A stretch of DNA of 64,000 nt from positions 15,872,001-15,936,000 of the forward strand of contig CM022673.1 in the NCBI GenBank assembly GCA_012295275.1, read 5' to 3'. Origin of the DNA: Chrysomallon squamiferum. Taxonomy: Eukaryota; Animalia; Mollusca. The position numbers were made by a program, and so were the translations under genes. Every line of letters starts with the position of its first letter. Position 1 is the first letter of the stretch. The notes below the pieces were generated by a model. The model saw only the letters and a program-made list of their open reading frames with translations, was not told the origin of the DNA and did no database searches. Below, one piece after another: positions 483-58,819 of this stretch.

Positions 483-2205
483 CTTACAGCGCAGTGAATT
501 AGCTTAACTCCGATAAAGTCGGGATTCTTTGCGGCGAATTCATTCGCGACATCACGATACATGCGCAAAGCCCATTCCGAGTCGTGTGTTGTGCCGTTTA
601 ATTCGTAAGTCTGTTTAAACGAAAACATAATAATATATAAATAAACAAATTAGAAAAAGTTTTCGGTCTTTAATTTTAAGAATAAGCACATATAGACAAA
701 ATGCTAGATATTAATAATGACGCCTGCTTACCTCTGGTAAAAGCGCTCGAACTTCCAAGTACTGTACATTGTCTTCACGGAACTGTTTCAGTGCTTCGCG
801 CCAGTAATCTCGGAATACTGGGGCATAGTACATTAGTCCATTCATAGCCATAAAATATTTGTTAAACTTCTGCCAGACTGCATTTAATGTGGGATAAGCT
901 TGGGTGGGGTTGTCGACAACTATAGACATCTTCTTTATTAACCTTCCATTAAAGAATGAGAACATTTTTTTTTTACATATTTAAATATTGAATATTAAAT
1001 ATCAAGAATTATAAGGAATGTTTCTTGAAAAGTCTTTCTCTGTTGTAAACCGAATTCAAAAAGGATTAATCAGACATTTATTTTAATTTGATTTTATTTT
1101 TATTTTTATTTTTATTTTTTTTTTTTATTCTATTCTATTTTTATTTAATTATTTATTTTAGTTTGTTTGTTTGTTGTTGTTTTTTTTTATTATTGTTGGG
1201 GTTTTTTAATGGAAAAATATTGCAATGTTAAAGAAATATATTTACATTTGATCAAAATGATCCGCATCTCCGGAAGCATCACGTTGCGATTTCACAGTCA
1301 CCCATATGCAATCTGTAAACAATCCAAAAATATTTGTTTAAGAGAATATTTGTGTTTCATCAGTTATTATATTATTCATGCATCCATTCATCCATCCAAT
1401 CATAATATCATTCATTTGTCAATTCATTATTCCTATTCATTCATGCATCCAATACATCATTCATTCATGTATTCATTATCATTCATCCTTCATCCATTCA
1501 TAATATCATTCATTCATCCATTCATAATATCATTAATTCGACCATTCATTAATCCATCCATTCATTCAGCGTTTGAAAATAAATACTTTAAGAAAACAAA
1601 ACTGAAATACCTGAACTGGCTGGCGGCGAGGAAAAGAAGTAAAACTTCAAATCTCCATCTGAACACATGTAACAGTTTTCACGATACGTGACGTTTTTAA
1701 TCACCCATTCCAAACTTGTTATCGATGAGTCGTGCACATGTAAGGCGCCACCTACAATAAAACAATATGTTTATTTCAACATTTTAACATTTCAGAAATG
1801 TACGGGGAATTTACATCTACATGCTCATGGATGGATTGATGGAAGTAGATAGACAGACAGAAAGATGGATGGTTTCATTCGTCAAAACAATAAATAAAAT
1901 AATTAAATTTAAAAAAAAATTAAAAATAAAATTAACTGAGCTTAAACCTTGTCGTATATATATATATATATATATATATATTTGATATAAGCCGACAAAC
2001 TTTAAATGTTTTTTTTTTTGGGGGCGTGTACTCGAAAAAAATGAAACATATGGAGAAATTCAAACACGTTTTCCTTATCTTAAAAACACTGTTGATATTT
2101 TTCCCACGATTAAAATGAAATATTATGAAGGTTTTTTATTAGTTGTTTCTTTTTTCTTCGTTTTTAAAATAATATTCGTTAGTTCCTGTTATTTTGTGTG
2201 TCTTC

Positions 2206-2264
<59 letters not shown>

Positions 2265-2549
2265 AAAATATCACAAGAAACATGAAAATTTAATAATTAC
2301 AATTAACTGATTAATCAAATTTTATAAAATTAATCAGATCATCAAAGAAAAGTTTTAAAATCTTTTGTATGTTTTTACAAATATTAATTTTTCTATTTTG
2401 TTTTTTCTTTCTTTTTTTTAATTTTATTTATTTATTTATTTTGTTGGGTTTTTATTTTTAAAAATTTAAATTTAAATGCATATATTATTTTGTTTTAAAT
2501 TTTAATGGATATATTTAATTAATTTTTTTTTAATTTAAATTTAAATGCA

Positions 2550-2587
<38 letters not shown>

Positions 2588-3214
2588 CATATATATATAG
2601 CACATATGTATTTAAACAGAACACTGTTCGATCTCTTTATAATTTTTTTTTTTTTTTTTTTTTGGGGGGGGGGTCACGTTCCTAAATTATTAGATTTTAA
2701 AATAATCTTTAATTTGTTTATCGTTTTGGTTAAATGTTTAATAATATAATTATGTGTATTTTTTCATCAAAATTCATAAACACTAAAAACATTGATGAGA
2801 CTGACATTATATAACAATTGTATTCTTCATGATTTCTCCACTTAAATATAACCTGATACAGTGGTCTCTCCCAACAGTTTGACAAGCGTACTTCTTACCT
2901 TTAGGCATCGCTTTAATAAATTGGTATACTGGACTACGATCGATCAACTTCTTGGCTTGGAAAAAGCTGATATGAGGTGGGAATATTGTTCCATTGATTC
3001 GAGAAGTCGCGATTTCTTTTCTTTTAGCATTCATTAGCATTGAATCTACTACGGTTTCTTTTTTATTCAAAACCATCGTTCCGCCAATACGAAGTTTGTC
3101 TTCTTCATGAACGATGTGCTGTCTTTTTTCCATGTAATCCTTTACGCTGCACCATGATACCCCACTGACAGCACTTACTACGAGAAAAAACAGCAACGTT
3201 TTTGCGGCCATCAT
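483..3214 (-). CDS. ADA2: Adenosine deaminase 2 / ADGF (mollusc-derived growth factor-like), 5' five exons; gene continues beyond the left edge
   Basis: Exons 3214-2899, 1751-1611, 1312-1246, 942-732, 610-483, all GT-AG and phase-consistent. Signal peptide (MMAAKTLLFFLVVSAVSG), ADGF N-terminal region FPPHISFFQAKKLIDRSPVYQFIKAMPKG, zinc-binding GGALHVHD across exons 1/2, and YAPVFRDY...FREDNVQYLEVR. Confidence 0.93.
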
Positions 3215-3978
3215 TGGTGACTCTTTGTCGTTTAACTTCCTAGTGGAGGTTTGCTAACCGAAACTGCAGAAATGGTATCAGCGGTGTAGAAAACATCACG
3301 CGGTCAATGGCGTACGTATCTATATATAATATAGCGACCTTTGGCCTAGTTCTGAAACACGAGATCGTCAATGTAAACATAACTTGAGCAGCCGATTACA
3401 GTTATTATTTTTAATTGCAACATCACCTTGAGGATATTTTTATTTATTTATTTATTATGTTTGAAAAGGATAATTCTCTAGTGAAACGTTCATGATCACA
3501 ATTTTTTAATAAAATCAGTTTAAGCTGGTTTATAAACAAGAAACATTATAATCTTAGCAAACTACATATTCCAAACATGTTTATGCTCGTAGATTCCGCT
3601 ACTTCGCTGGCACGTTTGATCCTGTTGTCATCATCATCGTCATAATGAATAATAATTAGTATTACTGTTAACTTACTGTTGTTGTTGTTACCACCATCAT
3701 TATTTATCTGGATATCACTGTACATAGTGACAACACTTTGTCAAGTACTTATTTATTGTTTATTAACTGGTTTTGATCTTAAAAGTTCATCTTGAAAACA
3801 GTTTCCATTTAAATGTTATTTAAGAATATTTTGTTTCAGTAATAATTAGTAACAATGAAATCAATATGTGTAATCTACTTCTGTCGAGAGTGGTGAGTTG
3901 AGAAATTAAACAGTTAATTTCATTTAGTTGTTTTTATTATTATTATTTAGGACTGGAGGTTATTATTTAGGACAGATC

Positions 3979-5253: not shown

Positions 5254-5925
5254 TCAGCCTGGTGGTTTTCCAAGCAAGGCACTGTCTGGGGCAGAATCCC
5301 AGATTATTTTCTGAATCTGTTTAAACTTGGGATGTGCAGAGTCACCAGTCAAACACAACAGAATACTCTCACTTGTTGTGAGAAAAGCCCCAGCATCTCG
5401 GATACGCTGATATGCATACATCCTGTAACAGTCAGAGAATTAGTTATTTATCCATTTGTTGATTTATTTACTTCCTTTTTTTTTAGTTGTAGTATTTATT
5501 AATATAAATACATCCTGAAATAGGAAATTATTTTTATTTATTAATTATTTATATTTATTTATATTTATATTCATGTATGCATATATTCAGTATATAATAT
5601 TATCATTACTAATAAAAAAAACACCACAATGAGTAAAACAAAATATATATATATATATTTGTGTATGTAATTTAAAAAATTAAAATGTGTAACTCCAAGA
5701 AACAAATAATTTGTTCATTTAGATATATAATTAGGCCATTTGTTTTAACTTGAGCTCCATTTTAACTCACATACCTGTCTACAAGACTTCTTGAAGAGCA
5801 AGCATCAACAACAAGGTGAACATCAAAGCCTTTATCAATAAGATCCAGAGCTGTGCACTGAATACACACCTGTGTCTCTATTCCACACAGAATGATTGAT
5901 TTCAGATCTTAAAAAAAGAAACAAA

Positions 5926-6013
<88 letters not shown>

Positions 6014-7139
6014 ATTGACTGGAAAAGAAACAATAAAAAGAAAATACTAAAAATCTCAATAACATAATGATTAATAAAAATATGTTACTCTAATACTGTG
6101 TTTCTTTCACGTATCATCTCTTACTCATTACCTAATTAAATCCTAACAATTAATATTAAATTATTTTGAAACATTCATTAACATTAATTCATTGACAGTT
6201 ATTAATTTTTTCATTAATTTATTCTTTCAATTTTTCATTTAATCTCTCATTTATTCAATCATAACATAACAGGGAGAGTAAACAAACCTTTCATTTTACT
6301 GATGTGTTCTTCTACACTTGGCACAAGCATAGAGAACTGAGTCTTTGGAAACACGTCGAGATTACTGACATCAAGTTCACTGACTGTGTGGCCAAGTTCT
6401 GAAGTAAAAAAGACAAAAATATTAACTATTAATTACTTGTATACATGATATGCAATTATAAATTATTACAATTTACACAGTTCTAATAGCAATTTAATGT
6501 ATTTGACTTCTAAAATTAAAAATGTATTTTTCAGATTGGAATGTAAGGAAAATAATAACTGAATGTAGTAAAGATTACCTCAACCAGCATTTTTGAAAGT
6601 GATTTTGTAAATAAATTCTACATTTGCCCATTTTTTCTTTCTTTTTTTTTTTTTTAGATTATTCATTGCATTATAAATTAATTATAAACCTCATTTATGA
6701 AAAATAATTTTAAAGAAAGAAAGGAACAGAAATGGTAAAATTATATTTATAATCATTAGAACTTCAATACAATCACCCAATTCTGGAATATATACACATA
6801 TATATTTACTTTAAATATGAAATTGAAAAACAGGGTGACAAACACATTTTCATAAAATCTGTATTCAGTATGTTGAAAGAGTTTCATATTTATTTATTTT
6901 TAACTTTTTATATTACAACTTAAGTCCACCCTTCAAGGGCCTCTCTGAGACTAACTTTCCGGGTTCTGCTCCGTCACTACAATAGGCATATCTAAAACTT
7001 TGGCTGCATTTAATAAACGACCGGAAACAGATATGATCTGCGGATAATACTGAATCGTTTTCCGAAAGGCTTCTTGCATGTCACATAAAAATAATGCAGA
7101 ATTTTTCAGAACAATCTTTCCTAATCGTTTGGTAGCCAT
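5254..7139 (-). CDS. ISOC2: Isochorismatase domain-containing protein (ISOC2-like), ~198 aa, 4 exons
   Basis: Exons 7139-6956, 6398-6288, 5907-5775, 5422-5254 (597 nt, in frame to TGA). Motifs [69 protein letters not shown]2 rather than ISOC1 is inferred from the short N-terminus. Confidence 0.88.
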
Positions 7140-7648
7140 GATTAATTATTTGTGTAAATTCCTCATTCTTTTCCACCGCTCCTGTCTCCTTCAATTGCAC
7201 GTAAACCGTAACCAAAAATCGATTTTTAACAGCACAACGATTGTAGCTTAACATCGAATATGTGATGTTTTATTAGTTTTATAAAAAGTAAACCAAATCC
7301 AGTAATGATTCATCTAAGTAAAACACAAGAGATCTGTATTTTGTTGTTTAATTGCCAAGGAGGAAAATCAAATTACATAATACAGAAAATGGCGGCGCCC
7401 GTATGGAAGTAAACAACAAAACAAAAATCAAAACACAAATGTCATATTTTATTTTCATAATTAGCAGAAATCAAGAGCGTTTTAAAACAACAGTTACCTA
7501 TTTTAGTATGATATTAAAGCTAGATTTCTAATATCAAAGCGAGACAAACAAAAAATTATTTTTTAATTTTTTATTGATAATTTAATAATTCATATGATTA
7601 TTATTATGATCATATAATTTTATACGTGTCGCAGGAAAAGATAACGAA
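7140..7648. promoter_or_regulatory. Putative bidirectional promoter shared by ISOC2 and H6PD
   Basis: Start codons diverge ~510 bp apart; YY1-type AAAATGGCGGC at ~7386-7396 and ETS-type GGAAGT at ~7405-7410. Confidence 0.55.
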
Positions 7649-8849
7649 ATGAAAAAATTATATTTTTGTGTTACTTTCTCTTTAACGTTTTGTTTTGCAT
7701 TAATTTCATCATCTGAGGCATATTCTGCTAGACATACGAACATTGTTATTTTGGGCGCTACTGGCAATCTTGCAAAACGGTATCTCTGGCAAGGGTTTTT
7801 TAATTTGTTTATCAAATACAGAGAAAAGGGGCAATCGTTCACATTTTATGCAGCCGGAAGAGCACCTGCAGATACTTCGAATTCTCTACTGACAGAAATA
7901 TTTGACAAAGAGTTATTATGTCCAGAGGAATTTAAAATTAATAACTGCATGGAAATTAAAAATAATTTCAAACATTTGGTATCTTACTCCGTACTTAAAA
8001 ACGAAACAGATTATTCAACATTTTGTTCCAAGATGCTGGATAACAGAATGAATTCCGAGAAAACCAGTGGAGAAATTATTTTCTATTTGTCAATTCCATC
8101 TAGCTCATATATCTCAGTCGCTGAAAACATAAATAAACACTGTAGACCAAAGAATGGCAAAATAAAATTACACATAATATTAGAGAAACCATTTGGAAAT
8201 GACAAGGCATCTGCTGTAACCATGGGCAACAGTTTAGCAGAACATTTTAAAGAAGATGAAATATTCAGAGTGGATCATTATCTCGGAAAAACTATTGTCT
8301 GCCAGATTTTAGCTTTCAGGTTAACATATTTAAAAGAAATATATTTATAGAAAATTTCTTGTTTAATAACATTTTATTAATATATTAGTATGTAATATTG
8401 TATTTATAATTATATAGGCCTATGGCTATATAATTTAATTTTAAATATTATATTTTACTTTATTTATATACAAGTAGATAAATGTCCACTAAGATATTAA
8501 TACACATGCGCGTCATACAGAAACAATGATCAAAGACAGTTCAACAAGCATGCAGACAAACTGACTGTTTTATATTTGTAGATCACTGAATAAACAGATA
8601 GAAGACAAACTGAACAAAGATGAAGTGGAGAGAGTGGAAATATTCATGAAAGAAACTGTTGGGGTTAAAGGTAACAATCACATTTACAATTAACCTGTGA
8701 CCTCTGAATTTTCTTCTACAACCAAGAATTGCTTTGTTACAGAGTCATTTTGGATAATATTATTACATATATGCATCTTTTAATAATATATATTTATTTT
8801 TTTATTTTTTTTATATATATATTTTGATATACTTTTAAAATTATTATAA

Positions 8850-8925
<76 letters not shown>

Positions 8926-10544
8926 AATTTATTTTAAATATTTTTTCTTCAGGTAGGATAGATTTCTTTGATCAGACAGGTATAATCCGTGACATATTTC
9001 AAAATCATCTGACAGAACTGTTAACTCTGGTTGGCATGGATTTACCTCAGAATCTGTCATTGCCTGAACAAGTTAAGACAGAGAAACTAAAACTGCTTCA
9101 TCGAATCAAGCCAGTGGTACAGTCATCAGTTTTGATTGGTCAGTATTCTGATTATGTCTCTGAAGTAAAGAATGAAACAAAAGGCTTGAAAAATACAACC
9201 TTGACTCCAACTTTTGCTGCAGCCATGTTGTTTATTGATTCACCGAGATGGACTGGAGTGCCGTTTATCCTAGCTGGAGGTAAAAAGCTGAATGAAAAGT
9301 CATCATTTGTCAGAATATTATTTAAACAAAACATAATTTGTGTCAGCTGCACAAACAATTCCAAAACCCAGCAGCTCATCTTTCAGATTGGACATGGCAT
9401 TGTAAAAAGTCCAGCCATTATTGTTTCAAAGTCTTTGGGTTCTCCAAAATGGCCAGCAGCTATGTCAGAAGTGGAATTTGATCATGGTGGTCACTTATTT
9501 GGTGATCATACTTCTGATCTTTTACTGGCCAGACCAATCAGCAATCATGATGCATATACAGTTCTCATTGAGGATATATTCATAGAAAGGAGAGATAATT
9601 TTGTAGGAACACACCACTTGTTAGCATTATGGGATATCTGGACTCACATCATCACAGAGACAGAAAAAAAGACGCCAAGAATATATAAAGCTGAAGACAA
9701 AGAAGGACTTTTAGATTTTGTTATTAAAGGTTCACAGTTAACCTTCAGAGTGCAGGATCCACAGAAAAACAAACTGCAAATTCAAGAAGACAGCATACAT
9801 ACACCAGCTACTTTTCTTGGCTATAAATTAATTTCTTGTTCCTGCACTCAAATTGCCAAAGTATTAGCTGAAGATATTTCCAAGAGTGTTCATTCTTCAC
9901 TCAAAAATAACTGGACATTTCACATTGCTTTTTCTGGAGGTAACAGCCCCAAACTTCTGCTTCAAGAACTAGCTCAGTCTTACACTCATCTTCCATGGGA
10001 AAAAATACATGTTTGGCAAGTGGATGAAAGATGTGTGCCCTTCACAGATTATCAGTCAAACTTTTATCATCTACAAGAGCTGTTGTTAAGATTTGTTCCA
10101 ATTCCTCATCAAAATATTCATCCAATGCCTGTTGACATAAATGGCAAGCTCTGTGCTCAAAGGGACATGGGAAAATATATGTATAAAGAATCAATGAAAT
10201 ACCATATTCCTGACCTTAGCTTTGATTATGTTGTCCTAGGTGTTGGTGATGATGGACATACAGCTTCCCTATTTCCACATTCTCCGCTGTTAAAAACAGA
10301 TGCTTTAGTTGAAATAGCAGACAGTGGCATGGACACCTTGAAATACAGGATGACTTTAACTTTGGCTGTGATAAACAAATCAAAACATATATCTGTATTG
10401 GTTAGCGGGAAGAAAAAATCCATGATTTTAAACAGACTGGAAAAGGAGGAAGGGTTTGTGTCAGATTTTCCTGTTCTAGGAGTGAAACCAGTGTCTGGAA
10501 AATTAGTGTGGTTTATAGACAAAGAAGCTATGTCTGATACATAG
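7649..10544 (+). CDS. H6PD: ER hexose-6-phosphate dehydrogenase / 6-phosphogluconolactonase bifunctional protein, ~783 aa, 3 exons
   Basis: Exons 7649-8319, 8582-8670, 8953-10544 (2352 nt). Signal peptide, Rossmann GATGNLAKRYLW, LEKPFG, RVDHYLGK, GIIRDIFQNHLTE, then a 6PGL domain (IAFSGGNSP, WQVDERCVP, LGVGDDGHTASLFP, RMTLT). Confidence 0.95.
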
Positions 10545-12433
10545 ATGATAATAATGAAGATTACTGTTATCTCTCTTTTTCTTACTTTCTTTCTCTGTAT
10601 GTTTCTCTATTGATAAATATTTTTATTGATTTATTTATTTTGTAAGATTTGGTTATTCAAATTGCTTTACACTTGTTTGCCAAATAAATATCAGTGCAGT
10701 ATTAGTTAGCATATGCAACGAATTTTAATATTTTAATTTTAAAAAAAGGTTAAAGGAAAAACCATTTTTATTTTTGTTTAATCACTTTAGTTGTTACAAA
10801 CACAGTAAATTTTGGTTTTTCTGGTTTTCATATTTTAATGAATAACCATAAATATCTATGTTTTTACTATTTATTTTTCTATAGATATTACTTTCGTTTT
10901 TCTTTTCAATCCCCGTGTTATTTCAGTTTGTCTGTGTGTGTGGGTGTTGTTTACATAATTATTTTAATTCATACATATATATATATACACTCATTCACAC
11001 ATTCACATGCTTAAACACACACAAACACAAAAATGTTTATTGCCATAAATAATATTTATAAACGAATTTTACAATTTATAAATGAATTTTTCTGCTTTAG
11101 TATCATTGTGATAGAAATATTGTTAAATATTGTTTGCATAAATGTATTATTCTGGAATAAAGAAAATATTTAACTGTATTTGTTTCTTATTTTCAAAAGC
11201 AGATTTAAGTCAAACACAAAGTAATTGTAACTCACGAATGTGAATACTAAATGAAATAATTCACAACGCAACAGAATGATGAACCTGTTTTAGGTTAACT
11301 TATGCAAAATGTTTCTACAAGATAAGTACATGTTTGTTTACTTTAAAAAAAAAAAAATCTTTTTAAGCTTATCATTAATTTAAAAAAAAAAAAAATTTCT
11401 CCTTTGATATTGTTATTTTGACACCATTAAAGCATCGAAGTGATTGTAATACAAAAAATACGAAATAATTTGTATTGTTCTATTTAATAATAATAATAAT
11501 GTTGGAACTTAATATAAGGTTTGATCATACGAAGTCTGAAAGGGCATCTAACGTTGTCGACTGACTAAAGAGCGCCTCACGTTTTAAGCCGGCCTTGCGG
11601 GTACTAATCGTGTTTTGGAATACAGTAAAGACTAATTACTGAGTGTTTTCTCCATTGTTTTCCAACGTCCACTGAGAGCAAATACCTAATGACCTCGTTT
11701 TTAATACTGAGTTTCATTTTGACAATAGTACGCATCAATTTACACTTACTGACCTAAATTGTACTAGTTTATATATTTGAAATGTCATATTATATATTAT
11801 TATTATTCCTAAAATAATGTAACAGAATGTGTGTGAATGATTTTAGCATACTTTCATAACAAAACTATACACGCATACCTGCCGTGTACTTTTTTGATTG
11901 CATGCCAAATCACTGAATATTTTGTCATAAAATAGTTTAACGTTATTTAATCATGTAGGTAAAACAGTCAGGTGGGTTGGGTTGTTTGGAGGGGATTAAA
12001 AAAATAATAATAAAATAAAATAATTTGTGAAAAGATAACAAGTAATGAATTCTGAATAAACATGTTTTATTCATTTGGCATTTATATTTACTTCAATGTC
12101 ATGGATACATCGTGAATGTACTAAATAGTTTAGAAGATAAGATATGTGGATTAAAACAAATGCAAACGAAATCTTTTGATTTTAATTATTATTGAATGTC
12201 AATTGTAAAAAAATTAAAAAATAAAATTAAAAAATTAAACAATCGAACAGGAAAAGATATAAGAAAAAAAAAGATAAACATTTTAAAAAGTTAATAAAAA
12301 AGGAGAAATAAATCTATACGAAAATACGTCATTTAAAATGACACGTTTTACACCTTACAAAAATGAAGGTGATACTGTGAATATATGTTTTTGTTTCGTT
12401 TCTATCCTCGTTTTTAATTTATTTTAATATTTA

Positions 12434-12718
12434 TTAATTTCCAGAAAACTTAAGATTAGTTTTTGCAATAACTCCAAACATGGCTTCCCCTAAATCTTCA
12501 CTGATTTCTGCTAGGATTTTTGGTTCCCGGAAGTGCGTCACAGCCTGGGCCATGGCTCGTGCACGTTTGGCGGGATTAGTACTTTTGAAGATTCCAGAAC
12601 CGACGAAAACGCCATCAACGCCCAGCTGCATCAGCAACGACACATCAGCAGGCGTGGCTGTAAAAGAAAAACAGTCTAAAACGAACCCGCCGTAAAAATT
12701 ATATTGCGTAAAAAACAA

Positions 12719-12775
<57 letters not shown>

Positions 12776-14176
12776 CTCTGTCACCATACGTTACCTAAAC
12801 CACCAGCAGCAAAATTTACAACCGGAAGTCGTCCCATTTCCGCCGTTTTCTGCAACAAATCGACTGGTACTCTAAGCTCTTTGGCGTAAGCATATATTTC
12901 TGTAGAATCCATTGACTTAGCAGCACGTATCTGTTTGTTTATCGTTCTAGCGTGAAAGACAGCTTGTGATACGTCGCCTGAAACAATGAATGGATTAATA
13001 TTTATCTGAGCACGTTTAAATATTACGATTTTTTCATTTGTGTGTGTGTGTGTGTGTGTCTTTAGGATCCTAGCAGTCATGGTTTTGCAGGCTATTCATA
13101 GTAATATCAGCAATGGTCAACAGGAAAATACATTTCTTTTGATACGTTAGTCCTAGTGCACTATGGTTGAAGAAAAGTTATTACTACTACTGCTATAAAA
13201 ACAAAAAAAATAAAAAAAATGGATATTCAGTTTTTAAAATCATGATTTACTTACCTGTTCCTGCTTCTCCTTTAGTTCGAATCATAGCCGCACCCTCTGA
13301 AATTCTCCTCAGAGCCTCTCCTAGATCACGTGCTCCGCAGACGAAGGGAACAGTGAATCGATGTTTATCAATATGATTTTCGTCATCAGCGGGGGTGAGA
13401 ACTAAATATTAATAAACACAGTCAAATGTACGTTCGATAATACGAATATGTACCTGTCTGTTTTCAGATTATCATTTCATTTCTTTACCAATAGTTTTTA
13501 ATAATAAATATTCACAGCAATAACACAAAAAGCTTACGATACAAAATATTGTAAATAATTGTTCCTTAATTCCTTATTTCGGACGAACTAGTGTATTTAA
13601 TATAAGACCACGGCAAAAGGAGAAAAAAGTATATATCAAATTACTAACTATCCAATTATCTAGCTTAATTAATTAATTAATTAAATCATAAACTATAAAC
13701 ATATAAAAAATAAAAAAGTATAAAATAAAACTGTGGTCTGAGATCACGTACCTTCAGACTCGTCCACCATATCGACGCCCAAACTTTCTAATATTTGCGC
13801 CTCGGCAAAATGTCCTATCCGAGCTTTTGCCATTACTGGTATAGTCACTGCCTTGATTATTTCTTTAATTTTCTACATGTACAAAAAAAAAATATATATA
13901 TATATATACTATTTATAAATGTATTGTGTTGTATTGTGTGTTTTTCTTCATGTATATATGTCTGTATATCTGTATGTGTATATATGTTTGTATGTCTCTG
14001 TTTGTATATACGTACATATGTGCGTATAAATTACCTTTGGATCAGTCATTCTTGCTACACCACCATCTCTTCGAATATCAGCCGGAACACGCTCCAATGC
14101 CATTACCGCGCATGCCTGAAAGAAGTAAATGTTTATGATATTAATAAGCATGGTAGAACTATTTATGAATGCTACT

Positions 14177-14223
<47 letters not shown>

Positions 14224-15428
14224 TAAATGAATAAACATGTAAGCCTATATTACGTCATATGTCTCATACAGTTAAAAACTATATTCTCCCTTCTCCGTTT
14301 ACAAACTTTTTGTTCCAAACGTTCCAAAATATTTTCTTTGACGATGACACATTTGTTTCATTATTTACATCATAAGACATTGTTTTACCAAAATTTGGCC
14401 GTGGTACCTCCTTCAAGTTAACATTATTTTGTCAGCTCCAAACAAGTCCAGTACATTTAACCAGACATATACCTGAAAATAAACCTCGCATAATATTTGG
14501 TTTTATTTCAAAAATGGACTCGCCAATACTTACTCCTGCTTCCTCTGCTATTTTCGCTTGTTCCGGCGTAGTGACGTCCATGATTATCCCCCCTTTTGCC
14601 ATTTGAGCGAGTCCAGCCTTGACCTTGAACGTTCCTAAAAATACAGGAAGGAAAAACGAATCACCTTATTTAGTGACGACTCAGACCCATTTTAAGTCTG
14701 CGTACGATTACAGTTATGACCCCGAAGATATGAAAGGCCACTGAGATAATAAAGTTGCTACATTTATCTCTAATAAATAAGTTCGGTTTCAAATAGGATA
14801 GTACATTCCATGACATTTATGGAATTAACATCCCATGGCCCCACCGAAGAAATCGATTTTAAGCAGATGACACATATAAGGGAATAGAGATAGAATTAGA
14901 TTTACAGACAGAGACGGAGACGACGGACCGACAGAAAGATGATTTATCAAAGGCTTTGGAATATATTTCCTGGTATATAGGAAGGTACATATAAGATTCC
15001 TTGATATTAATAAGTAACAATAAATCATAAAATGTTTTCCCCTTATGCCAGTTTAGATAATAATGTATGTCCGACCTCTAATATTTAAATATAGTCAGGC
15101 ATCACTAAACATTCATTCCTGTCATCCACATTCTCTTGCATACTGGCGATGAGAAACGAAACCCACATCCGTCAGTTAATTAGCTGATTCGTACAATAAG
15201 AATCAATGGATACATAACAGAGACAGGAATGTTCAAACCATATCCATTAATAGATTAGTCGTGGGACTCTATGCAGAACGGGAAATAACCTAATCGGCTC
15301 TAAAAGTTATTTGTAATAATGACTCCAGTAATTAATTTCAACAAACCTATTTTTCTCTCCGTTGTCAGATTCATGTCAGCAACCAAGTTTGTCACCTCCA
15401 CTGATCCGTTCTGGAATGAACTCGCCAT
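12434..15428 (-). CDS. PDX1: Pyridoxal 5'-phosphate synthase subunit PDX1 (PdxS/SNZ), ~312 aa, 7 coding exons
   Basis: Exons 15428-15347, 14634-14534, 14115-14035, 13872-13752, 13401-13255, 12977-12795, 12657-12434 (939 nt, no stops). Motifs [110 protein letters not shown]. Confidence 0.97.
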
Positions 15429-16311
15429 TTTTTTTTTCGCCTTTATTTTATTTTTATTTTTTTTTACGAATAATTTTCACGTTGAATTACCTCTGAAATG
15501 TGATGCAGTATATGACATTATGTATACAATATTATCAATAAACTGTAAGTAATGAGAGACAGAGGCAGACACAAAACCAAAATATTAAAATCGAACTGCA
15601 TGGAATTTATTAAAAAGGTGTATTAAACATAGTAGTAGAAGTAATAGTAATAGCAGCAGCAATAGTCGTATTAGCAGTAGTGGTAGTAGTAAAGTTATTG
15701 TAACAGTATTGATGGTAGTAGTAGTAGTATAACAAATACAAAATAATTTTGAAAGTTATATGATGGTAATTAATACGACTACGAAAATGCTATAGCTACA
15801 ATCATTATTATGTCCAATTATACTACTACAACTACTACCACCAATACTATTACAATAACTGATACTACTACCATTACTGCTACTACGACTATTACTTGCT
15901 TGATCATGATCAATATTTGTTGAGTTATAAATATTATAATTACACGGTAATGATCGTCACGATAATTAATACTATAACCATCATCATCTTTAATATCATT
16001 ATTATAGTCATATTAGTATTAAATATATCATTATCATTATTTTTATCATCATTATTAACAATAACTATTAATATTGTCAAATCGTTATTAATAACATCAT
16101 TATCATTATTATAAAGATATATTATTATTAAGATATGATTATCATTATTATTAAGATATCATTATCATCATTATTAATATATTATTATCATCAGTTACTA
16201 CTTCATATCATCTTCATATTTATGGTTTATGATAAACATAATCTACATATGTAAAAGATAAAACAGAATTTTTCCATGTAATACAACATGAAATAAACAA
16301 AGCCTACTCAC

Positions 16312-16673
16312 GTGGACAGTGCCGTTTCAGCCTGGTAAAAACGTATGGTCACCTCTGGCTTAAACACAATATTTAATCTATATCCTTTCCGCACTAATAG
16401 TTCTTCATTCACAATCCTAACACCTGTTACGTAGTTGCTCTGTTTATGGCTAACACCTGCTAAATATTCATGAGCTCCTATCAAAACTGATGAAATACAT
16501 ACACGCAATCCCTGAAGAGGTCTCGGTGTTTTAACCCAACAAAGAGACTCTACTATCACGAATATTTTCACCGTGATTCACATTATTAAAACCGAGACAA
16601 ACTCAGACTGAGGCTAATACGAGTTTCCTTTCTATGTCAGCCGTTACGCTTTTCTAAGTTAAGTCTCGTTAAG
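16312..16673. promoter_or_regulatory. Inferred bidirectional promoter plus non-coding first exons of PDX1 (minus) and PDX2 (plus)
   Basis: Minus-strand donor CAC|GTGAGT at 16312/16311 and plus-strand donor AAG|GTGAGA at 16673/16674 bound a non-repetitive island. Both first coding exons have unpaired acceptors just upstream of the ATG (minus TTTCAG ending 15493; plus TTTCAG ending 19378). Confidence 0.55.
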
Positions 16674-17485
16674 GTGAGATTTCGTTTGTATGCTACGCTT
16701 TTGGTTCTGATTATCAACATTATTTACATTCATGTATTTGATCGCTATCCTCGGTAAACGGTACTGTCTTTGTACAAAAGTAATAGTTAATTGATTAATT
16801 TTATGTTATCATCGACAGAGCCGACCATTATTATGGTTTATCACTTTATGTTTAACTCGTGGTAAAACACTAATAATGTAATATTTCAAAAATTCGATAT
16901 ATAACAGTTATTCTGGCCTATTGCTACATTACGATACAACGATTTACTGATATTCTAGAATGCGATATGCCTTTACGTTACACTCTAGAAAGCTGTATAA
17001 CTTATTGATATCCTAGAATGCGGTATGTTTTAGATCTCTAGGCTGAAACACGGTATCTATTAAAAAAAAATAATAATAATAATAATAATTTTTTTTATCA
17101 CTGAGACAGAAAGAGATGTTTGGGACTGAAGTGGAAACATTTTTTTTTTAACCTTTGTGTCTTACAAGATATGTATGGCCTATATAATATACCGTATGTT
17201 TTGTACATAAATGTAAAAGTTAATAAGCATATCTTTTCAGGCTAATTTATCAGAGTTGAGTGCTTAAATTTATTTATCCACAACAAAAACATAAATGCAA
17301 TGAAAGTCTATGTCTGATCATACAAGTTGTCAATTAAATTATCTTCGTTTTGATTAATTTATTTTATATTGTTTTTACTATTTATGTATATACTTTGCAA
17401 GTTAGGTGAACATTTTCTAATTTAAGTATTTTTTATTTCCTGTCTTTATCTAGTACGTAAATTTTGTTCTCCTGTATCAAAGAAA

Positions 17486-17566
<81 letters not shown>

Positions 17567-19280
17567 TGTGTGTTGTAGTTATTGTTGTTGTTACATTTAT
17601 TTGTAATTCAAGGGAGATTACTGTTTATATATTTTTTGTATTATTTTGTGTAGCGGCAATTTGTTTATGTACTTTTTGTATATATTTATGTATTTATCCG
17701 TTTCCGTGTGTACATGTGTGAGTGTATGTATTGTGTATGTATATGTATATGTTTATGATATGAAGATGGTATTATTAGTAGTAATTGATGATAATGATAT
17801 CTAAATAATAATGATAATGATATCTAAATAATAATGATAATGATATCTTAATAATGATAATAATAATGTTATTAATAACGATATGACAATAATAATAAAG
17901 TAATAATGATGATAATAATGATAATGATATGGTTGATACTAATATGACTGTAATAATGATGTTAAAGATGATGATGTTACATTATAAATGGATATATCTA
18001 TGTATGTATGTGTGTGTGTGTATGTATGTATGTATGTATGTATATGTGTGTGTGCGCATGTTGAAGAGTTTGTGTCTGTGAGTGTGTGTGAATATATTAA
18101 TGTTGTGTGTGTGTGTGGCGAATTCAGTTTATAATTTGGGTCATTTCGCGAAATAAATTTGATTTGTTTTCTTCTTTTTTTCTTTTCATTGTCTGTATTG
18201 TTAACATTTAGTATGACAAATATGTCAGTAACCTGATTAAAGAAAAATGTCAGACATGTGACCTGTCTAAGTCAATGTCACCAGGAACGATAACTGTAAT
18301 AATTAAACAGTCAAAACTGTGCGAAGAGGAAATAAACTGAAAGCAAACATCTAGCAAATAAATTAATAAAACGTAAACATTATTTGTATACAGTAGTTGT
18401 GTTAGAAGTAATTTTAGCTGTTGTATTAACAATAACTGAAGTGGACGTATTAGTAGTTACTGTTACATTAATAGTAAATGCAATATTTGTAAATTTGCAA
18501 CAGTAAGAGTAGCAGTAGTAGAAATATTAATATTAATACAAGTAGATGTTGTAGTTATAATAGCAATCATCATCATCATCCTCTTCATAATAATAATAAT
18601 AATAATCATCCTCTTCATACAATAATAATAATAATAATAATAATCATTACAGATGCCATGAAATAAAATGTTCTTTTTTTATAACTTCAATTCAGATCAA
18701 TCTGTTAATTAAAAAAAAAAAAATTAAATAAATTGCTGAAAACTTTATCACACTTCTTTATACAAACAGTTTACAGAAACCTTCTAACTGTGACACCTGT
18801 TAATTGTTACATCAGTCTTGTTTCAATAAACCTGTAAATGTTCGTAACTGATAAGTCTGTGATAAGATGTGTAGTTAAAATAAAACATCATAAATGTAAT
18901 CGGTAAACACGAAATGTTTAGTTTGTTAGAAAAACACAAACTTTCCTAATGATAAAGCATATGATTATAATGTAACAATTAGCCTGATTACAAAAACGAA
19001 AAAGGGCCTCTTTTTTGTTTTTATGTACTCTGACTTTAATTCATATATTAAAATGTAAAAAAAAAAAGTAGGTATAATGAGAGATTCAGTAAAATTTTAC
19101 TTATCACTAATGATTATGAAGGTACATAAGAAGACTGTAAACCTGTACCACTATAATATTGTTGTAATGAGTAATTCTGCTCCTGAAGTAAACAGTATAA
19201 ACAGTATTATAATGAGATACAATCTTGCATTGTTGATGTGGTTATTATTTCTTCTTCTTCTTCTTCTTCTTTTCTTATTC

Positions 19281-19329
<49 letters not shown>

Positions 19330-19414
19330 CACATATTTTTTGTGATTATCATTATATATTCATCCTTTAACGTTTCAGGACTCAAATTACTATCACGAAA
19401 CGTCCCGCCTAACC

Positions 19415-20445
19415 ATGCCAACCGAATCATCTTCTAAACCCGGAATTCACTGTAAAATAGGTATTTTAGAAATACAAGGAGCATTTCTGGAACATGAAAC
19501 TGCCTTGACCCAAGCAGGGAGAAATCTAGGTGTTTCCATAGACATACACGGGGTACGTCAAGTCTCAGATATTAAATCGGATATAGATGGCCTCATTATT
19601 CCTGGAGGGGAGAGCACTACGATGGGATTATTTCTGGAACGTCATGCTATGACGGAGCCGCTCAGGAAGTGGATAAACAGCAAAGACAAGGTCACGTGGG
19701 GTACCTGTGCGGGGATGATTCTTCTAGCTAAAGAGATGGAGAACCAGAAAGAAGGTGGACAGAATTCGGTAAGAAATTTAAATAAAAATAATACAAAATA
19801 AAAGAAAGAAAAATGAAACCAAAGCACACGAATATTGTTTTATTTTCGGGTGTGATGATTTATTTCTCGTTCTTGCCAAAGACATCAAATGGTTTATTAA
19901 AAGAGGTGTTATGTTAAAAAGAAATCGCTTTCTTCCAATACACTACATAATTATTATCATAATATATAAAACTAATATAATTCTTAACTTGTTATATTAT
20001 AATATTTTAATTATATATTCATTACTGTAAGTAATATGTTTACAATTATTTTTTTTGTTTTTTTTTTTTTTTTTTTTTTCCCCAGCTACAAGCAATGGAC
20101 GTGGTCGTATCCAGGAATTACTTCGGTCGTCAAGTTAACAGTTTTGAACAAGATATAGAAATCATAAGTTCAGAATTAATTTCTCAGATCGGACACTCAA
20201 CAAACGCTTCCACGTATCACGGGGTTTTTATCCGGGCTCCAGCCGTTGTTCGAATTACCCATCCATCTGTTGAAGTACTTGCCTATCTAAAGAAAACAGA
20301 CACTGGTGACAAGGTTACTGTGGCTTGTCGTCAGGGTAATATCATATCTACAGCTTTTCATCCGGAATTAACCGGAGATACACGATGGCATCAATTCTTT
20401 TTGAACACAATTTTGGCGAACAAAATCAAATCAACATCCAGCTAG
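19415..20445 (+). CDS. PDX2: Pyridoxal 5'-phosphate synthase glutaminase subunit PDX2 (PdxT/SNO), ~237 aa, 2 coding exons
   Basis: Exons 19415-19768 and 20086-20445 (714 nt). Motifs IGILEIQGAFLEH, DGLIIPGGESTTM, WGTCAGMILLA (catalytic Cys), RNYFGRQVNSFE, VFIRAP, AFHPELT (catalytic His/Glu). Confidence 0.97.
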
Positions 20446-20541
20446 AGTCCACTGAGAATTTTTATTTTTGTAATGTGTGATGGATCTTGGTTAAAATAAT
20501 AAAATATGAATTTAAAATATACATGTAAGTACCTGTATTGT

Positions 20542-20578
<37 letters not shown>

Positions 20579-21490
20579 GAGTTTGTGTTTCTGCACTTGT
20601 GATATTATGTAACAGAATGAAATGCACATAATCCGGCTGTGAGGAAATATACATAGATTTTATTCATTACTGTTTCCTCGCTTAAAAGCAAATACTATTG
20701 TACCAAGAATAAATATTCAAATCAACCAAATTTATAAAATTGTTTTCTTGTTTGATTATTGTTATTTTTTTTTTTTCTTTGCTTTCTTCAAAATATCAAC
20801 ATTAATAAACTAGAAATAACTTTAAAAGTAAAACTGAAAAAATGTTCAGGAAGAAAAGACAAAAATCTTTTACGAATCTGAATATAGATAATTTACGAGA
20901 AATAAAACTGTAAAAATAAGAAGAGATGAAACCATATTTCGTTTCACTGGTTAATTTGCTGAAAATTGCATCGATAAAATTATTCATTTCTCTTGCTATT
21001 TCTTCATTTTTTTCAGCTCAGGCATGTTGCTTAAACTGAAAAAACCAACAAAAACAAAGAAAAAAGAAAGAAAGAAAAAGAAAAATCAATTAAAATTTGA
21101 ACTCTTCGTAAAATGCAATATAGACGTTCAGTATAATCTTTTTAAACGTGTTTGACAAACTTTCCGTTGTATGTCAAGAGTGAGGGTACTACAAATGTTT
21201 CAGAATATGCGAATAATATAAACTAAATAGTTTTTGTATGCTTTAAAATGTATGTTTTATTTGTCATTGAAATCAGTATTTACTGAATGTGAAGTCTTTG
21301 TGTGTTACAAGAAATGTGTATGTTTGTGTGTCTGCTTATTTAATTATTTATTTTGAAAAAGATGCTTACCTCCTCCTTCCTCTCTTACTAAATTCCCGAT
21401 TAACAGGAAAGTTTATTAATAATGTCTGTCTGCTTATGAACTAAATTATGAGGAAATAAGAATTTAAAATTATATAATAGAGGAGCTATA

Positions 21491-21587
<97 letters not shown>

Positions 21588-24495: not shown

Positions 24496-26454
24496 TCTCT
24501 CTCTCCAACACATATACATGTAACCTTATGAAATATTTTCAGAGTCCTGCATCTGAACAGACAGAAGTTATTACAGATGTTAATGCAGTAAAGGAGACAG
24601 ATGCTCCAGAATACATAGTTGATAAAAAGACAGATGAACTGACAGGTGAAGGAACATTCACTTCTACCCTTTCTGATTTAAAGGATTATTTATTTCTAAT
24701 TAAGATATTAGAGTGTAAAATGATTGCTGTTATTATATGAGCTACTTTGATACAAACATTTATGTTTCCTTCTTGTTATGATGTAGGTACATAATCTTAG
24801 ATAAAATAGTCATGGAAAAGTGATAGAATAAAAGAATATGAAAATCATGGATACTGGACATATCTGACAAAATTATGTTATTTGAGAAGAAAAAAAGATA
24901 AGCAAAATGCAAAAGTAACGATTTCAGTTATTTTTTTAGTTTTTAAAGTGTGTAACTTTGAGTCATTAGATAATAAACCACTCTGTTTGCTGAAAAAGAG
25001 CATCATGTTTGAACAACATTTTAATAAGTGTAACTAAATATGTTCAATTTTGCCTAGCAAGAGTTTGGTTTCAAAATAACCAGCAAAACTGACAGAGGTA
25101 AAAGAAAGTATTCGTTTTAATACATAATTCTTCTACATAGTTTGGTGTTTCCAGAGTTTGATGGGTCAACTTTCAGTCATAAAATGGCTAAATGAAGTCA
25201 GAAGTTGCATATTATCAAATAATATATATTAGATTTAAGTAGAGATGAAATTTTGTTCTATTTTTTTAAAATTGTGTATATATTTTTTTTGTGTAGTTGA
25301 AGATACAGCTTTGTGGCATTAAACATTTGTGGCTCTGTAACTTACCCATGATTTTCACATGTACCAACACATCTCAACAATCACAAACAAAATTGGGTAT
25401 CTAAATCTAGTATTTTTTAGATGTCTGCTTCACTGATTATAACATTTACATGTATTACTAAAACATACATAAATATGTTACAAATAAAGTAGTTAAACAA
25501 AAACTAATTTATAACAGAAGGCAATATTTGATTTATTTGTGGCTTTATTGATTTAGTAAATAATTAATTTGATAATGATATATTTTGAAATAAAGACTGA
25601 AAAAGCTGGATATTTAATTGTTTATTTCTTTCTCTCACTTTTTGGTTAAAAACAGTTTGGTTGAATTTTTTATGCTGTTGACAATTTAATTAGATAATAA
25701 TGATAAACTGTTAAAATGATCCTCATGTGAAAAAAAGAAATAGTCCACCTGTATTAATTTTTGTAATCCAGTTCTAACTGTAACAAATTTCAACAGCAAA
25801 AGAGTGTAGTTAGAATATATAGGTGCCAGTTTTCTGTAGTTGTGACATCTTCAGATACTTGGCAGACCAGTACACAATGGTTTCTCATAGAGATTCCTGT
25901 TCTGAAGTATGAAAATGCTGTGATAAGAAGTTTGTAACTGTATTATTCTGATCACAGGTCACTCAAACCAAATAAAATAATAGCTCTTAAGTACACAGAA
26001 TATTTTTAGACAATTCATTCATACAAGATTAATTACATCCTTATTATTATTTAGTAAATTTTAATAAATATTTTCTTACATATTTTTGTTCAAAATTTGT
26101 ATAAGTAAAAAAAAGAATATCATCAGATTTACAGTAGTTAGTCTGTTTTATAGTACCAGGTATTCATTAAATTGTCATCTGTTCATTATCATTATAATAT
26201 ATATTATTATTATTATTATTATTATCATCATCATTTTTATTATTTTCATATTATTTGTAGATCCCAGTAAACAGCCAGGTATAGTGTGGAGAATGTCTAG
26301 TGGTCTGTATAGTACAGCAACAGGTGCAGTTGGAATGGGTGTTGGTGGAGTGAAGTGGGTAGCAGGAAAGACATATGATGTTGGGTCAGCAGTGGTTAGC
26401 AAAGTCCCAAAGCCTTCAGTCCCTACATGGAGTCGCAAAGATAAAAAGGAATGA
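23997..26454 (+). CDS. TMEM263: Transmembrane protein 263 (UPF0444/C12orf23 family), ~112 aa, 3 coding exons
   Basis: Exons 23997-24038, 24543-24645, 26261-26454 (339 nt, phase-consistent). QPGIVWRMSSGLYSTATGAVGMGVGGVKWVAGKTYDVGSAVVSKVP...KDKKE matches the family pattern. The two N-terminal exons are less certain than the last. Confidence 0.82.
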
Positions 26455-39725: not shown

Positions 39726-39826
39726 TTTGGAAAATGTCGTCGAAATTTGTATATATATGAAAAAAACTGTCATGTTTTAGCTATGTCATCTCCTTAAAAT
39801 TAATTACAGTGTTTAGTTTAAGGAAT

Positions 39827-52538: not shown

Positions 52539-52987
52539 TTATTCTTCAGCGGAACGTTTACCGAAGTGAAGCCAGCCGTTGCTGTAGTCGTCTGGTTGCC
52601 TACCAAACCTCATGAATCGCTTTTCGGCGACGTCGGAGTAGTCGTCTTCATTGCGTTTCTTGTCCAGACGAGGTTCACCAAACCAGACGCTGAGCTTCTT
52701 GTCGTTTGCTATTCCTCCACTACGTTTGCTCACGGTAGTCCCTTCGTCAATTTCCGCTGCGCGTTTCTGTCGCAGATGGAGACCAACGGCAGAAGGCCAG
52801 GAACGCTTGCCGAAACGCAGGTAACCCTTGTCGTCGTAGTAGTCGTCGTCAGGGTCGCTGCGTTTTCCAATTCTGTATCCGAAATTGGGGTAGTTGCCGC
52901 CGCTGCGACCGAACCGAAGGAAATTTTCGCCAAGTGTTGATCCACGTCCCCAGCGAAGATAGCTTCTTTTGCGAACATCGTATGATT
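52539..52987 (-). CDS. FMRFamide gene alternative terminal exon encoding extended FMRFamide-related peptides
   Basis: Acceptor TTTCAG at 52988, phase 1, open to a stop. Predicted amidated peptides SYLRWa, GSTLGENFLRFa, SGGNYPNFGYRIa, SDPDDDYYDDKGYLRFa, FMRFa and pQPDDYSNGWLHFa, each followed by G-R or G-KR. No signal peptide of its own. Confidence 0.88.
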
Positions 52988-53174
52988 CTGAAATTAAATA
53001 AATTTTAATTGTGTGCAAATTTGTTGGTTGTTTTTTCTATAATGTCTTTTTTAATTTAATCTTTTTATTTTTTATTTTTTTTAGGTTATTTGTTTTCATC
53101 ATTATCATTACTACTACTACTACTATAACAACAACTACTACTACTGCTACTATAACTACTACTACTACTACTAC

Positions 53175-58288: not shown

Positions 58289-58819
58289 CTGAAAAATATT
58301 AACAAAACGGATAAAGTAAATTATAATAACAGAGGTAAACCGTTCGCTCACTCTGCAGAGAGTTAACTTGTCTTCTTGGCTTAATTTTTAAAAAAAAAGA
58401 AAAAAGAAAAAAAATAGGAATGAAGTTAGCTACCTATCGGGAAATTTCTGCGGTTGTTTTGGTTTAAATCATTTTTAAAATTTAGAAGCCAGAAAAGTGC
58501 AATTGTTTAGTTTTCTGTCTTGAACAATGAAATGGTTAAATAAAAACTTAACTTTACTTACCAAAATGTGCCTCGAGTTTTGTTCACTTCAAAAATGTTC
58601 TCGAAGAAATCACGCAGTATTCTTGATAAAAACAGAAACAAAATGAGACGAGGATGAAATTTTGAAAACGAAAAAAGAAAAAAAAATGATGTGTTATGAT
58701 TTTATCCCAAACAATTGCACGCAAAAATTTCCCGATGTCATTAAGGATAATAAAGGAAAGTTTCCAACTTCAACAGACTGCAGCTGCAGCCAGAATATGA
58801 ATCTGAAACGCAAGTTCAA

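What the first reader, a model, noticed from the sequence alone, without database searches (positions are those of the whole stretch)
12434..20445. Complete, intron-bearing de novo vitamin B6 synthase (PDX1 + PDX2) in an animal chromosome
Seen: two uninterrupted spliced ORFs with intact catalytic residues. PDX1 has the Asp in IMDV and the Schiff-base lysines in VMAKARIGH and [11 protein letters not shown]2 has the Cys-His-Glu triad in GTCAG/FHPE. Their introns carry the same microsatellites as the neighbouring animal genes (H6PD, TMEM263), which argues against contamination or a fresh bacterial insert. Established: Pdx1/Pdx2 together make PLP from ribose-5-P, glyceraldehyde-3-P and glutamine; the pathway is typical of bacteria, archaea, fungi and plants and absent from vertebrates and the usual model invertebrates, with only patchy animal reports (e.g. 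sponge SNZ, horizontally acquired genes in cyst nematodes). Inference: this mollusc is a B6 prototroph, through ancestral retention or an old domesticated transfer.
Basis: partly seen in the sequence, partly recalled or inferred. Interest (0 to 1): 0.85.

Follow-up and report, generated by a model that had tools for sequence, protein, structure and literature searches.

The report
Vitamin B6 synthase pair in snail
This snail chromosome carries an intact, intron-containing, back-to-back pair of genes for the enzyme predicted to make vitamin B6 from scratch; the same genes are already annotated in many molluscs and other invertebrates and were likely inherited from early animals, so this is a known case rather than a discovery.

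Summary
The genes are real. PDX1 (7 coding exons, 312 aa, minus strand) and PDX2 (2 coding exons, 237 aa, plus strand) lie head-to-head, with GT-AG introns and all catalytic residues. The closest relatives are from the vent snail Gigantopelta aegis (93% and 76% identical), where the pair shares a contig with H6PD, TMEM263 and other neighbours seen here. The genes are not rare: named orthologues occur in over 20 mollusc species, many cnidarians, annelids, a brachiopod, a tunicate and a sponge, often with consecutive accessions. Animal copies form one group against prokaryotes (100/99), which favours ancestral retention. Host B6 synthesis in these snails is already in print (Lan et al. 2021). 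My searches found no biochemical test of an animal enzyme. One anomaly: mollusc PDX1 groups with cnidarians rather than annelids (AU p 0.03-0.065). The scan earlier noted an animal-type PDX1 in a springtail-like genome (e1-7495689).

The parts
15347..15428 (-). PDX1 coding exon 1 (ATG at 15428-15426); donor GTTTGT
   Evidence: 712-nt intron skipped in RNA contigs of 3 runs; N-terminus aligns with G. aegis PDX1
14534..14634 (-). PDX1 exon 2, carries D47 (IMDV)
14035..14115 (-). PDX1 exon 3 ([10 protein letters not shown])
   Evidence: loose end of the RNA contigs at 14533 equals the start of this exon
13752..13872 (-). PDX1 exon 4, carries K104 (first Schiff-base lysine by alignment)
13255..13401 (-). 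PDX1 exon 5, carries LGEALRRI (R160, R161; P2 phosphate site) and K172 (second catalytic lysine by alignment)
12795..12977 (-). PDX1 exon 6
12434..12657 (-). PDX1 exon 7 with stop codon
19415..19768 (+). PDX2 coding exon 1 (PGGEST, nucleophile C98)
20086..20445 (+). PDX2 coding exon 2 (H210, E212) with stop codon
15429..19414 (.). 3,986-nt stretch between the two start codons; probably holds a 5'-UTR intron of each gene and a short shared promoter near 16,640 (inferred, untested)
   Evidence: RNA contig X1 has 391 nt ahead of the PDX1 ATG (table 8); acceptor 64 nt before the ATG, candidate donors at 16311 (minus) and 16674 (plus); acceptor 36 nt before the PDX2 ATG
7610..10544 (+). Neighbour H6PD (context, not part of the pair)
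26263..26454 (+). Neighbour TMEM263, last coding exon (context)

Best explanation
The locus is an intact, spliced, head-to-head PDX1/PDX2 gene pair of a snail closely related to Gigantopelta aegis, which likely descends from the genes of early animals and is predicted to make vitamin B6 (PLP) de novo. By family knowledge, PDX2 would hydrolyse glutamine with C98-H210-E212 and pass ammonia to PDX1, which would bind ribose 5-phosphate at K104, relay the intermediate to K172 and condense it with glyceraldehyde 3-phosphate to PLP; the divergent layout would let one promoter co-regulate both subunits, as in yeast SNZ/SNO pairs. Shown here: gene structure, residues, splicing of PDX1 exons 1-2-3, host-gene neighbourhood, wide animal distribution, one animal group against prokaryotes. 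Inferred: enzyme activity, B6 prototrophy, shared promoter, and that the animal ancestor itself inherited the genes from unicellular relatives.
For: Open spliced frames with GT-AG introns. Pfam cut-offs passed. Catalytic residues conserved against solved PDX1/PdxS (G. aegis protein as query) and PdxT structures. RNA contigs in 3 of 3 RNA runs laid skip intron 1 and continue into exon 3. Synonymous sites saturated (pS 0.79-0.90) while pN is 0.13-0.17 against 6 of 6 unnamed animal-type transcripts. G. aegis carries SNZERR-like, pdx2, H6PD, TMEM263, ISOC2, CECR1, two FMRFamide genes and C6orf106 on one contig, the gene set of this window, and its PDX1 was seen in the host proteome, one peptide signal in each of 3 animals. 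All 28 named rows of the best 120 PDX1 hits are animals. Animal PDX1 against prokaryotes: 99, 100/99; animal PDX2 against prokaryotes and one fungus: 100. Consecutive or near-consecutive accessions or locus tags for the two genes in Gigantopelta, Lottia, Saccostrea, Patella, Pomacea, Mactra and the coral Desmophyllum. In prokaryotic loci pdxT is downstream on the same strand in 68 of 80, absent from the flank in 12 of 80, never divergent, so this is not a bacterial operon layout.
Against: No activity was measured here and I found none in print for an animal enzyme. All RNA runs are contigs of one study. The PDX1 tree does not follow the animal tree: molluscs join cnidarians (97/96), even hexacorals inside (97/94), with annelids and the tunicate outside; Lophotrochozoa held together gives p-AU 0.065 and 0.033. 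No named choanoflagellate, fungal or plant PDX1 was in the trees and only one fungal PDX2, which fell among bacteria, so the origin before animals is untested. The prokaryote sample is 599 of about 20,000 matching stretches. The pair is split across scaffolds in Potamilus and Acanthosepion, and orientation in relatives was not seen.
Confidence: 0.85

Rival explanations
1. The pair is functional but came into stem animals (or their unicellular ancestors) by an ancient transfer from bacteria and was then inherited vertically.
For: Animal PDX1 and PDX2 each sit on a long stem, and the nearest named non-animal hits are Chloroflexota and other bacteria (73% identity for PDX1). The one fungal PDX2 does not join the animals.
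Against: Named unicellular relatives of animals were not sampled, so closeness to bacteria is partly a sampling effect; the solved structure scoring best against G. aegis PDX1 is the plant enzyme, not a bacterial one. The divergent layout matches yeast SNZ/SNO (PMC7187267 passage), not the bacterial operon. It does not change the reading for this mollusc.
Confidence: 0.08
2. Animal PDX1 has two hidden ancient lineages, or moved once between a cnidarian and the mollusc stem, so mollusc and annelid copies are not simple orthologues.
For: Molluscs plus cnidarians 97/96 in the careful mixture tree, 97-98; animals-only AU test of Lophotrochozoa p 0.033.
Against: With the outgroup the same test gives p 0.065 and Bilateria p 0.33; cnidarian monophyly is not rejected (p 0.57); four AU tests were run; only 2 annelids and 1 tunicate were available, picked by a mollusc-cnidarian profile; fewer than 320 slow columns; PDX2 puts the two cnidarians with the sponge and the brachiopod, not inside molluscs (weak support).
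Confidence: 0.05
3. The genes are contamination, a recent bacterial insertion or decaying relics.
For: GC at third codon positions is a little higher (0.39 in both) than in H6PD (0.29-0.31). The DNA-like run X5 laid no contig on the tested stretch.
Against: Seven spliceosomal introns, spliced RNA, the same neighbours in an independent assembly, placement next to G. aegis at 99-100 support in every tree, strong purifying selection. The tool marks the X5 blank as no proof of absence.
Confidence: 0.02

Closest known systems
Gigantopelta aegis PLP synthase pair (XP_041366013.1 SNZERR-like; XP_041366014.1 PDX2; ctg152-4.14 and 4.18 in Lan et al. 2021, PMC7895826)
   Same: 92.6% identity over 312 aa and 75.8% over 231 aa; consecutive accessions; same neighbour genes; the paper scores B6 as made by the host.
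   Different: A different, related species; nothing of kind differs in what I could compare. Exon structure and orientation in G. aegis were not seen.
Two-subunit DXP-independent PLP synthase Pdx1/Pdx2 (PdxS/PdxT, SNZ/SNO; PDB 2NV2, 2ISS, 4WXY, 5LNR, 8U7J)
   Same: Pfam PF01680 and PF01174, both catalytic lysines, the aspartate, the LGEAxRRI site, the Cys-His-Glu triad.
   Different: Intron-bearing and divergent instead of a pdxS-pdxT operon; animal-type N-terminal extension and AQMAKGG where the plant enzyme differs; oligomer and activity untested.
Sponge SNZ/SNO of Suberites domuncula (Seack et al. 2001; seen only as a reference in PMC7954711)
   Same: An animal SNZ/SNO pair; NCBI names the mollusc proteins SNZERR-like. 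A head-to-head layout with a two-way promoter is recalled, not checked.
   Different: The paper is not held and its sequences were not compared; only Amphimedon PDX2 was in my tree.
Saccharomyces cerevisiae SNZ/SNO pairs
   Same: Co-localised pairs expressed from one bidirectional promoter (PMC7187267 passage).
   Different: Yeast has three pairs; whether the linkage is homologous or convergent with the animal pair was not tested.
Cyst-nematode SNZ/SNO
   Same: Same enzyme in an animal.
   Different: The genes here fall in a broad animal group and in conserved mollusc synteny; no nematode sequence was in my trees.

Membership tests
PDX1/PdxS/SNZ | SOR_SNZ (PF01680) domain above the curated cut-off over a full-length protein | tested here: met
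   5 of 6 exons scanned pass alone and tile profile positions 2-207 of 207; 312-aa model aligns end to end with 15 named animal proteins at 74-93%
PDX1/PdxS/SNZ | Two catalytic lysines and the N-terminal aspartate | tested here: met
   D47, K104, K172 in the model; same columns as the plant PDX1.3 chains in the G. aegis alignment; roles of the lysines from PMC11237949 passages
PDX1/PdxS/SNZ | LGEAxRRI P2 phosphate site | tested here: met
   LGEALRRI at 155-162; motif named in PMC11237949
PDX1/PdxS/SNZ | Hexamer/dodecamer ring and binding of PDX2 | not tested
   No structure or complex prediction was run
PDX1/PdxS/SNZ | PLP formation from R5P, G3P and ammonia | not testable with these tools
   Needs assay or complementation
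PDX2/PdxT/SNO | SNO (PF01174) domain above the curated cut-off | tested here: met
   88.8 and 80.3 bits against a cut-off of 27, profile 1-89 and 93-186 of 188; all 12 solved-structure hits for each exon are PdxT/Pdx2-type amidotransferases
PDX2/PdxT/SNO | Class I amidotransferase triad Cys-His-Glu and PGGEST motif | tested here: met
   C98, H210, E212; PGGEST at 63; aligned with PdxT chains
PDX2/PdxT/SNO | PDX1-dependent glutaminase activity | not testable with these tools
   Needs assay
Lineage-restricted gene transferred from bacteria into this mollusc | Nests among prokaryotic homologues and is missing from related animals | tested here: not met
   Groups with G. aegis and other animals against 78 prokaryotic PdxS and 23 prokaryotic PdxT; present in over 20 mollusc species
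Bidirectional SNZ/SNO gene pair | Divergent orientation with both 5' ends on one short promoter | tested here: inconclusive
   Divergent orientation is shown; the short promoter rests on contig length and candidate splice sites only

The most novel reading that the evidence does not exclude
Molluscs and cnidarians keep one head-to-head, co-regulated PLP synthase pair that has stayed linked since their common ancestor, and their PDX1 belongs to a different lineage from the annelid-tunicate PDX1 (hidden paralogy or an old animal-to-animal transfer); in this vent snail the pair would supply B6 to a holobiont whose symbionts live inside host cells.
Probability: 0.1. Interest if true: 0.6.

Novelty: already known. 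Interest (0 to 1): 0.25.

Why it matters
Reviews still state that animals cannot make vitamin B6 (PMC7954711) or that most lack the enzymes (PMC6071262), yet the pathway genes are intact across molluscs and cnidarians and in several other phyla. That gap between textbook and databases is worth a short comparative and biochemical study, which matters for shellfish nutrition and for host-symbiont nutrient budgets. But this window adds one more species to a pattern that is already annotated and, for the closest relative, already published, so it is not itself a surprise.

Tried and rejected
No whole genome is held for the window, so copy number and other B6 genes were not checked. Intron positions in relatives could not be compared: none of the 80 loci kept from the metagenome scan showed an intron-split match; they were single-segment, transcript-like or prokaryotic. 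Run X5 laid nothing on 14256-15420 and one RNA contig of X1 lay in intron 2 at depth 4.9: neither is informative. Unnamed marine-transcript clusters could be named only in part: 4 of 10 clusters looked up had no named member, the others were corals, Hydractinia, Clytia, Sanderia, Owenia and Clavelina. Literature searches: PDX1+PDX2+vitamin B6+metazoa 1 paper; vitamin B6+de novo+PDX1+animals+mollus 0; pyridoxal+biosynthesis+sponge+SNZ 1; a six-term gene-loss search gave nothing on B6 in animals by title or abstract (one paper opened); vitamin B6+PLP synthase+invertebrates+genome 0; SNZERR 0. Seack 2001 is not held. Rejected: contamination, recent bacterial transfer and pseudogene (see rivals). 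Rejected as unproven: that the host must feed B6 to its symbionts; the G. aegis sulfur oxidiser has an expressed pdxJ and another paper scores B6 as present in 8 of 13 symbiont genomes of these snails. No structure or complex prediction was run, since a textbook pair would pass by likeness to solved structures. Earlier-finding look-ups by sequence and place gave nothing relevant.
Full report
Observation. The sequence 11500-21500 holds two genes in opposite orientation. Joining exons at GT-AG sites gives PDX1 on the minus strand (15428-15347, 14634-14534, 14115-14035, 13872-13752, 13401-13255, 12977-12795, 12657-12434; 312 aa) and PDX2 on the plus strand (19415-19768, 20086-20445; 237 aa), with no internal stop. 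Pfam SOR_SNZ passes its cut-off in 5 of 6 PDX1 exons scanned and SNO in 2 of 2 PDX2 exons. They align with solved PDX1 chains (G. aegis protein as query) and PdxT chains. The microsatellite argument is only loosely right: PDX1 introns carry the array classes common in the window, but H6PD has a single AG array and the PDX2 coding intron none.

Expression. Five runs hold part of the region, four of them RNA from one study. On 14256-15420, contigs of 3 of 3 RNA runs laid skip exactly the 712-nt first intron, which confirms the unusual GTTTGT donor and exon 1, and their loose end at 14533 is the start of exon 3, which confirms the second junction; the fourth run laid (X5, kind unknown) gave no contig. 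Contig X4 has 772 nt beyond exon 2 where the spliced model needs 756 to reach the stop, which fits the remaining junctions but does not show them. Against six unnamed animal-type transcripts, pS is 0.79-0.90 (saturated) and pN 0.13-0.17, as expected of strong purifying selection.

Host and neighbourhood. The window also encodes an adenosine deaminase (ADA2/CECR1 type), ISOC2, H6PD, TMEM263, a C6orf106-type gene and two FMRFamide-type precursors. The best hits for both proteins are from Gigantopelta aegis: 92.6% over 312 aa and 75.8% over 231 aa. I infer a closely related snail, likely another peltospirid; the species was not determined. In the annotation table of Lan et al. 2021 (PMC7895826, supplementary file 6, rows seen), contig ctg152 lists H6PD, pdx2, TMEM263, ISOC2, SNZERR-like, CECR1, two FMRFamide genes and C6orf106 together.

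Distribution. With PDX1 exon 6 as query, 17 of the best 120 rows carry a name and all 17 are molluscs or cnidarians. With an eight-sequence mollusc-cnidarian profile, 28 of the best 120 rows carry a name and all are animals, adding a chiton, cephalopods, scyphozoans, an octocoral, the annelids Owenia and Dimorphilus and the tunicate Clavelina. With PDX2 exon 1, 26 of the best 120 rows are named animals, including Lingula and the sponge Amphimedon; the other named rows are bacteria, one fungus and organism-less pdxT entries. Counting species over searches gives 21 molluscs with PDX1 and 23 with PDX2. These lists are cut at 120 rows and biased to the query, so they say nothing on absence elsewhere. 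The two genes have consecutive or near-consecutive identifiers in Gigantopelta (XP_041366013/014), Lottia (ESO95428/429), Saccostrea (XP_062589098-099/100), Pomacea (XP_025085464/467), Patella (SNE40_003454/453), Mactra (ACF0H5_015607/605) and the coral Desmophyllum (OS493_004432/433); they are on different scaffolds in Potamilus and Acanthosepion. Adjacency is read from identifiers only; orientation was not seen. In the 80 prokaryotic loci, pdxT follows pdxS on the same strand in 68, is not in the 2.5-kb flank in 12 and is divergent in none.

Phylogeny. In a 286-row FastTree, the 27 named animal rows and 78 prokaryotic rows are separated by one branch (99; rows under about 250-260 aa were left out). 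A careful mixture-model tree of 54 rows (19 prokaryotes picked by hand) gives 100/99 for the same split (bootstrap not fully settled). For PDX2, 25 animal rows stand against 23 prokaryotes and one fungus at 100 (quick tree). The window's proteins are sister to G. aegis in every tree. This rules out a transfer into this lineage. It does not show where the animal ancestor got the genes, since no named unicellular relative of animals was available, and the prokaryote scan covered 2 of 64 parts of the collection. Against a clean picture: PDX1 joins molluscs with cnidarians (97/96) and leaves annelids and the tunicate outside. AU tests: Lophotrochozoa p 0.065 and Bilateria p 0.33 with 8 prokaryotes under LG+G4 (three molluscs and all unnamed rows left out); animals only under the mixture model, Lophotrochozoa p 0.033 and Cnidaria p 0.57. 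With two annelids, one tunicate and four tests I read this as probable noise, but it is not explained.

Mechanism. From established knowledge of Pdx1/Pdx2 (PMC11237949 and PMC7954711, passages): PDX2 releases ammonia from glutamine, and PDX1 binds ribose 5-phosphate on the first lysine, passes the I320 intermediate to the second and adds glyceraldehyde 3-phosphate to give PLP. Every residue needed is present, so the snail very likely makes PLP; this is inference, not assay. The start codons are 3,986 nt apart, but RNA contig X1 has 391 nt ahead of the PDX1 ATG; with an acceptor 64 nt before the ATG and a donor at 16311, the 5' end would be near 16,640, next to a candidate PDX2 leader exon ending at 16673. 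That would be a short two-way promoter like that of yeast SNZ/SNO pairs (PMC7187267, passage). It is a guess from lengths; an unspliced leader fits as well.

What is in print. Lan et al. 2021 (PMC7895826; passages and supplement rows seen, figures not held) state that B3 and B6 can only be made by the host in the G. aegis holobiont, list six vitamins that G. aegis and Chrysomallon squamiferum hosts cannot make with B6 not among them, compare 18 other molluscan taxa, and propose that the host supplies B6 to its symbionts; their tables annotate K06215 and K08681 in the host and detect the PDX1 protein. A 2026 scallop paper (PMC13212745; section 13 and part 76 of supplementary file 5 seen) marks 11 of 12 host genomes as making B6 'from Glu and D-R5P'. 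A deep-sea mussel paper scores the host set as incomplete from gill data (PMC9841196, passages), so holobiont papers disagree. Reviews mention only 'some sponges' citing Seack et al. 2001 (PMC7954711, passages) or say most animals lack the enzymes (PMC6071262, passages). Seack 2001 itself was not available; its head-to-head arrangement, an earlier report of repeated losses in animals (Tanaka et al. 2005) and the cyst-nematode transfer are recalled. My searches found no biochemical test of an animal PDX1/PDX2, but the library lacks most subscription journals.

Verdict. Novelty: already known. Interest 0.25, carried by the untested biochemistry, the conserved linkage of the pair and the odd PDX1 topology.

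Noticed in passing
window 12434-12470 (PDX1 C-terminus): The window's PDX1 and that of G. aegis end about 20 residues earlier than those of the 11 other molluscs aligned, most of which share a tail with a W-x-x-TLG motif; cnidarian proteins are also short. The tail may have been lost in this snail family.
   Followed up: no
PDX1 trees: Mollusc PDX1 groups with cnidarians, not with annelids; Lophotrochozoa is borderline rejected (p-AU 0.033 and 0.065).
   Followed up: partly
window 16311-16674: Candidate 5'-UTR donors on opposite strands about 360 nt apart suggest that PDX1 and PDX2 start back to back near 16,640.
   Followed up: partly
window about 5800-7100 (minus) and 7610 onward (plus): ISOC2-like exons lie head-to-head with H6PD, a second divergent pair next to PDX1/PDX2. 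H6PD is a pentose-phosphate-type enzyme beside a pentose-phosphate-consuming synthase; probably chance.
   Followed up: no
window 52539-53036 and 57318-58298 (minus): Two neuropeptide precursor exons in tandem: one with YLRFG/FLRFG/FMRFG repeats and a classical FMRFamide precursor with many FMRFG copies; both are also on the G. aegis contig.
   Followed up: partly
window 711-3253 (minus): Exons of an ADA2/CECR1-type adenosine deaminase with signal peptide.
   Followed up: no
window 39761-42632 (plus): Exons of a C6orf106/ILRUN-type gene with an NBR1-like Ig domain.
   Followed up: no
window 14599: One RNA contig (X2, depth 3.5) reads A for C on the plus strand inside PDX1 exon 2; allele or error.
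   Followed up: no
P0278 (Batillaria, 621 aa) and P0342 (Porites, 507 aa): Two named PDX1 proteins are far longer than the family norm, one with an extra PF13837 domain; probably merged gene models.
   Followed up: no
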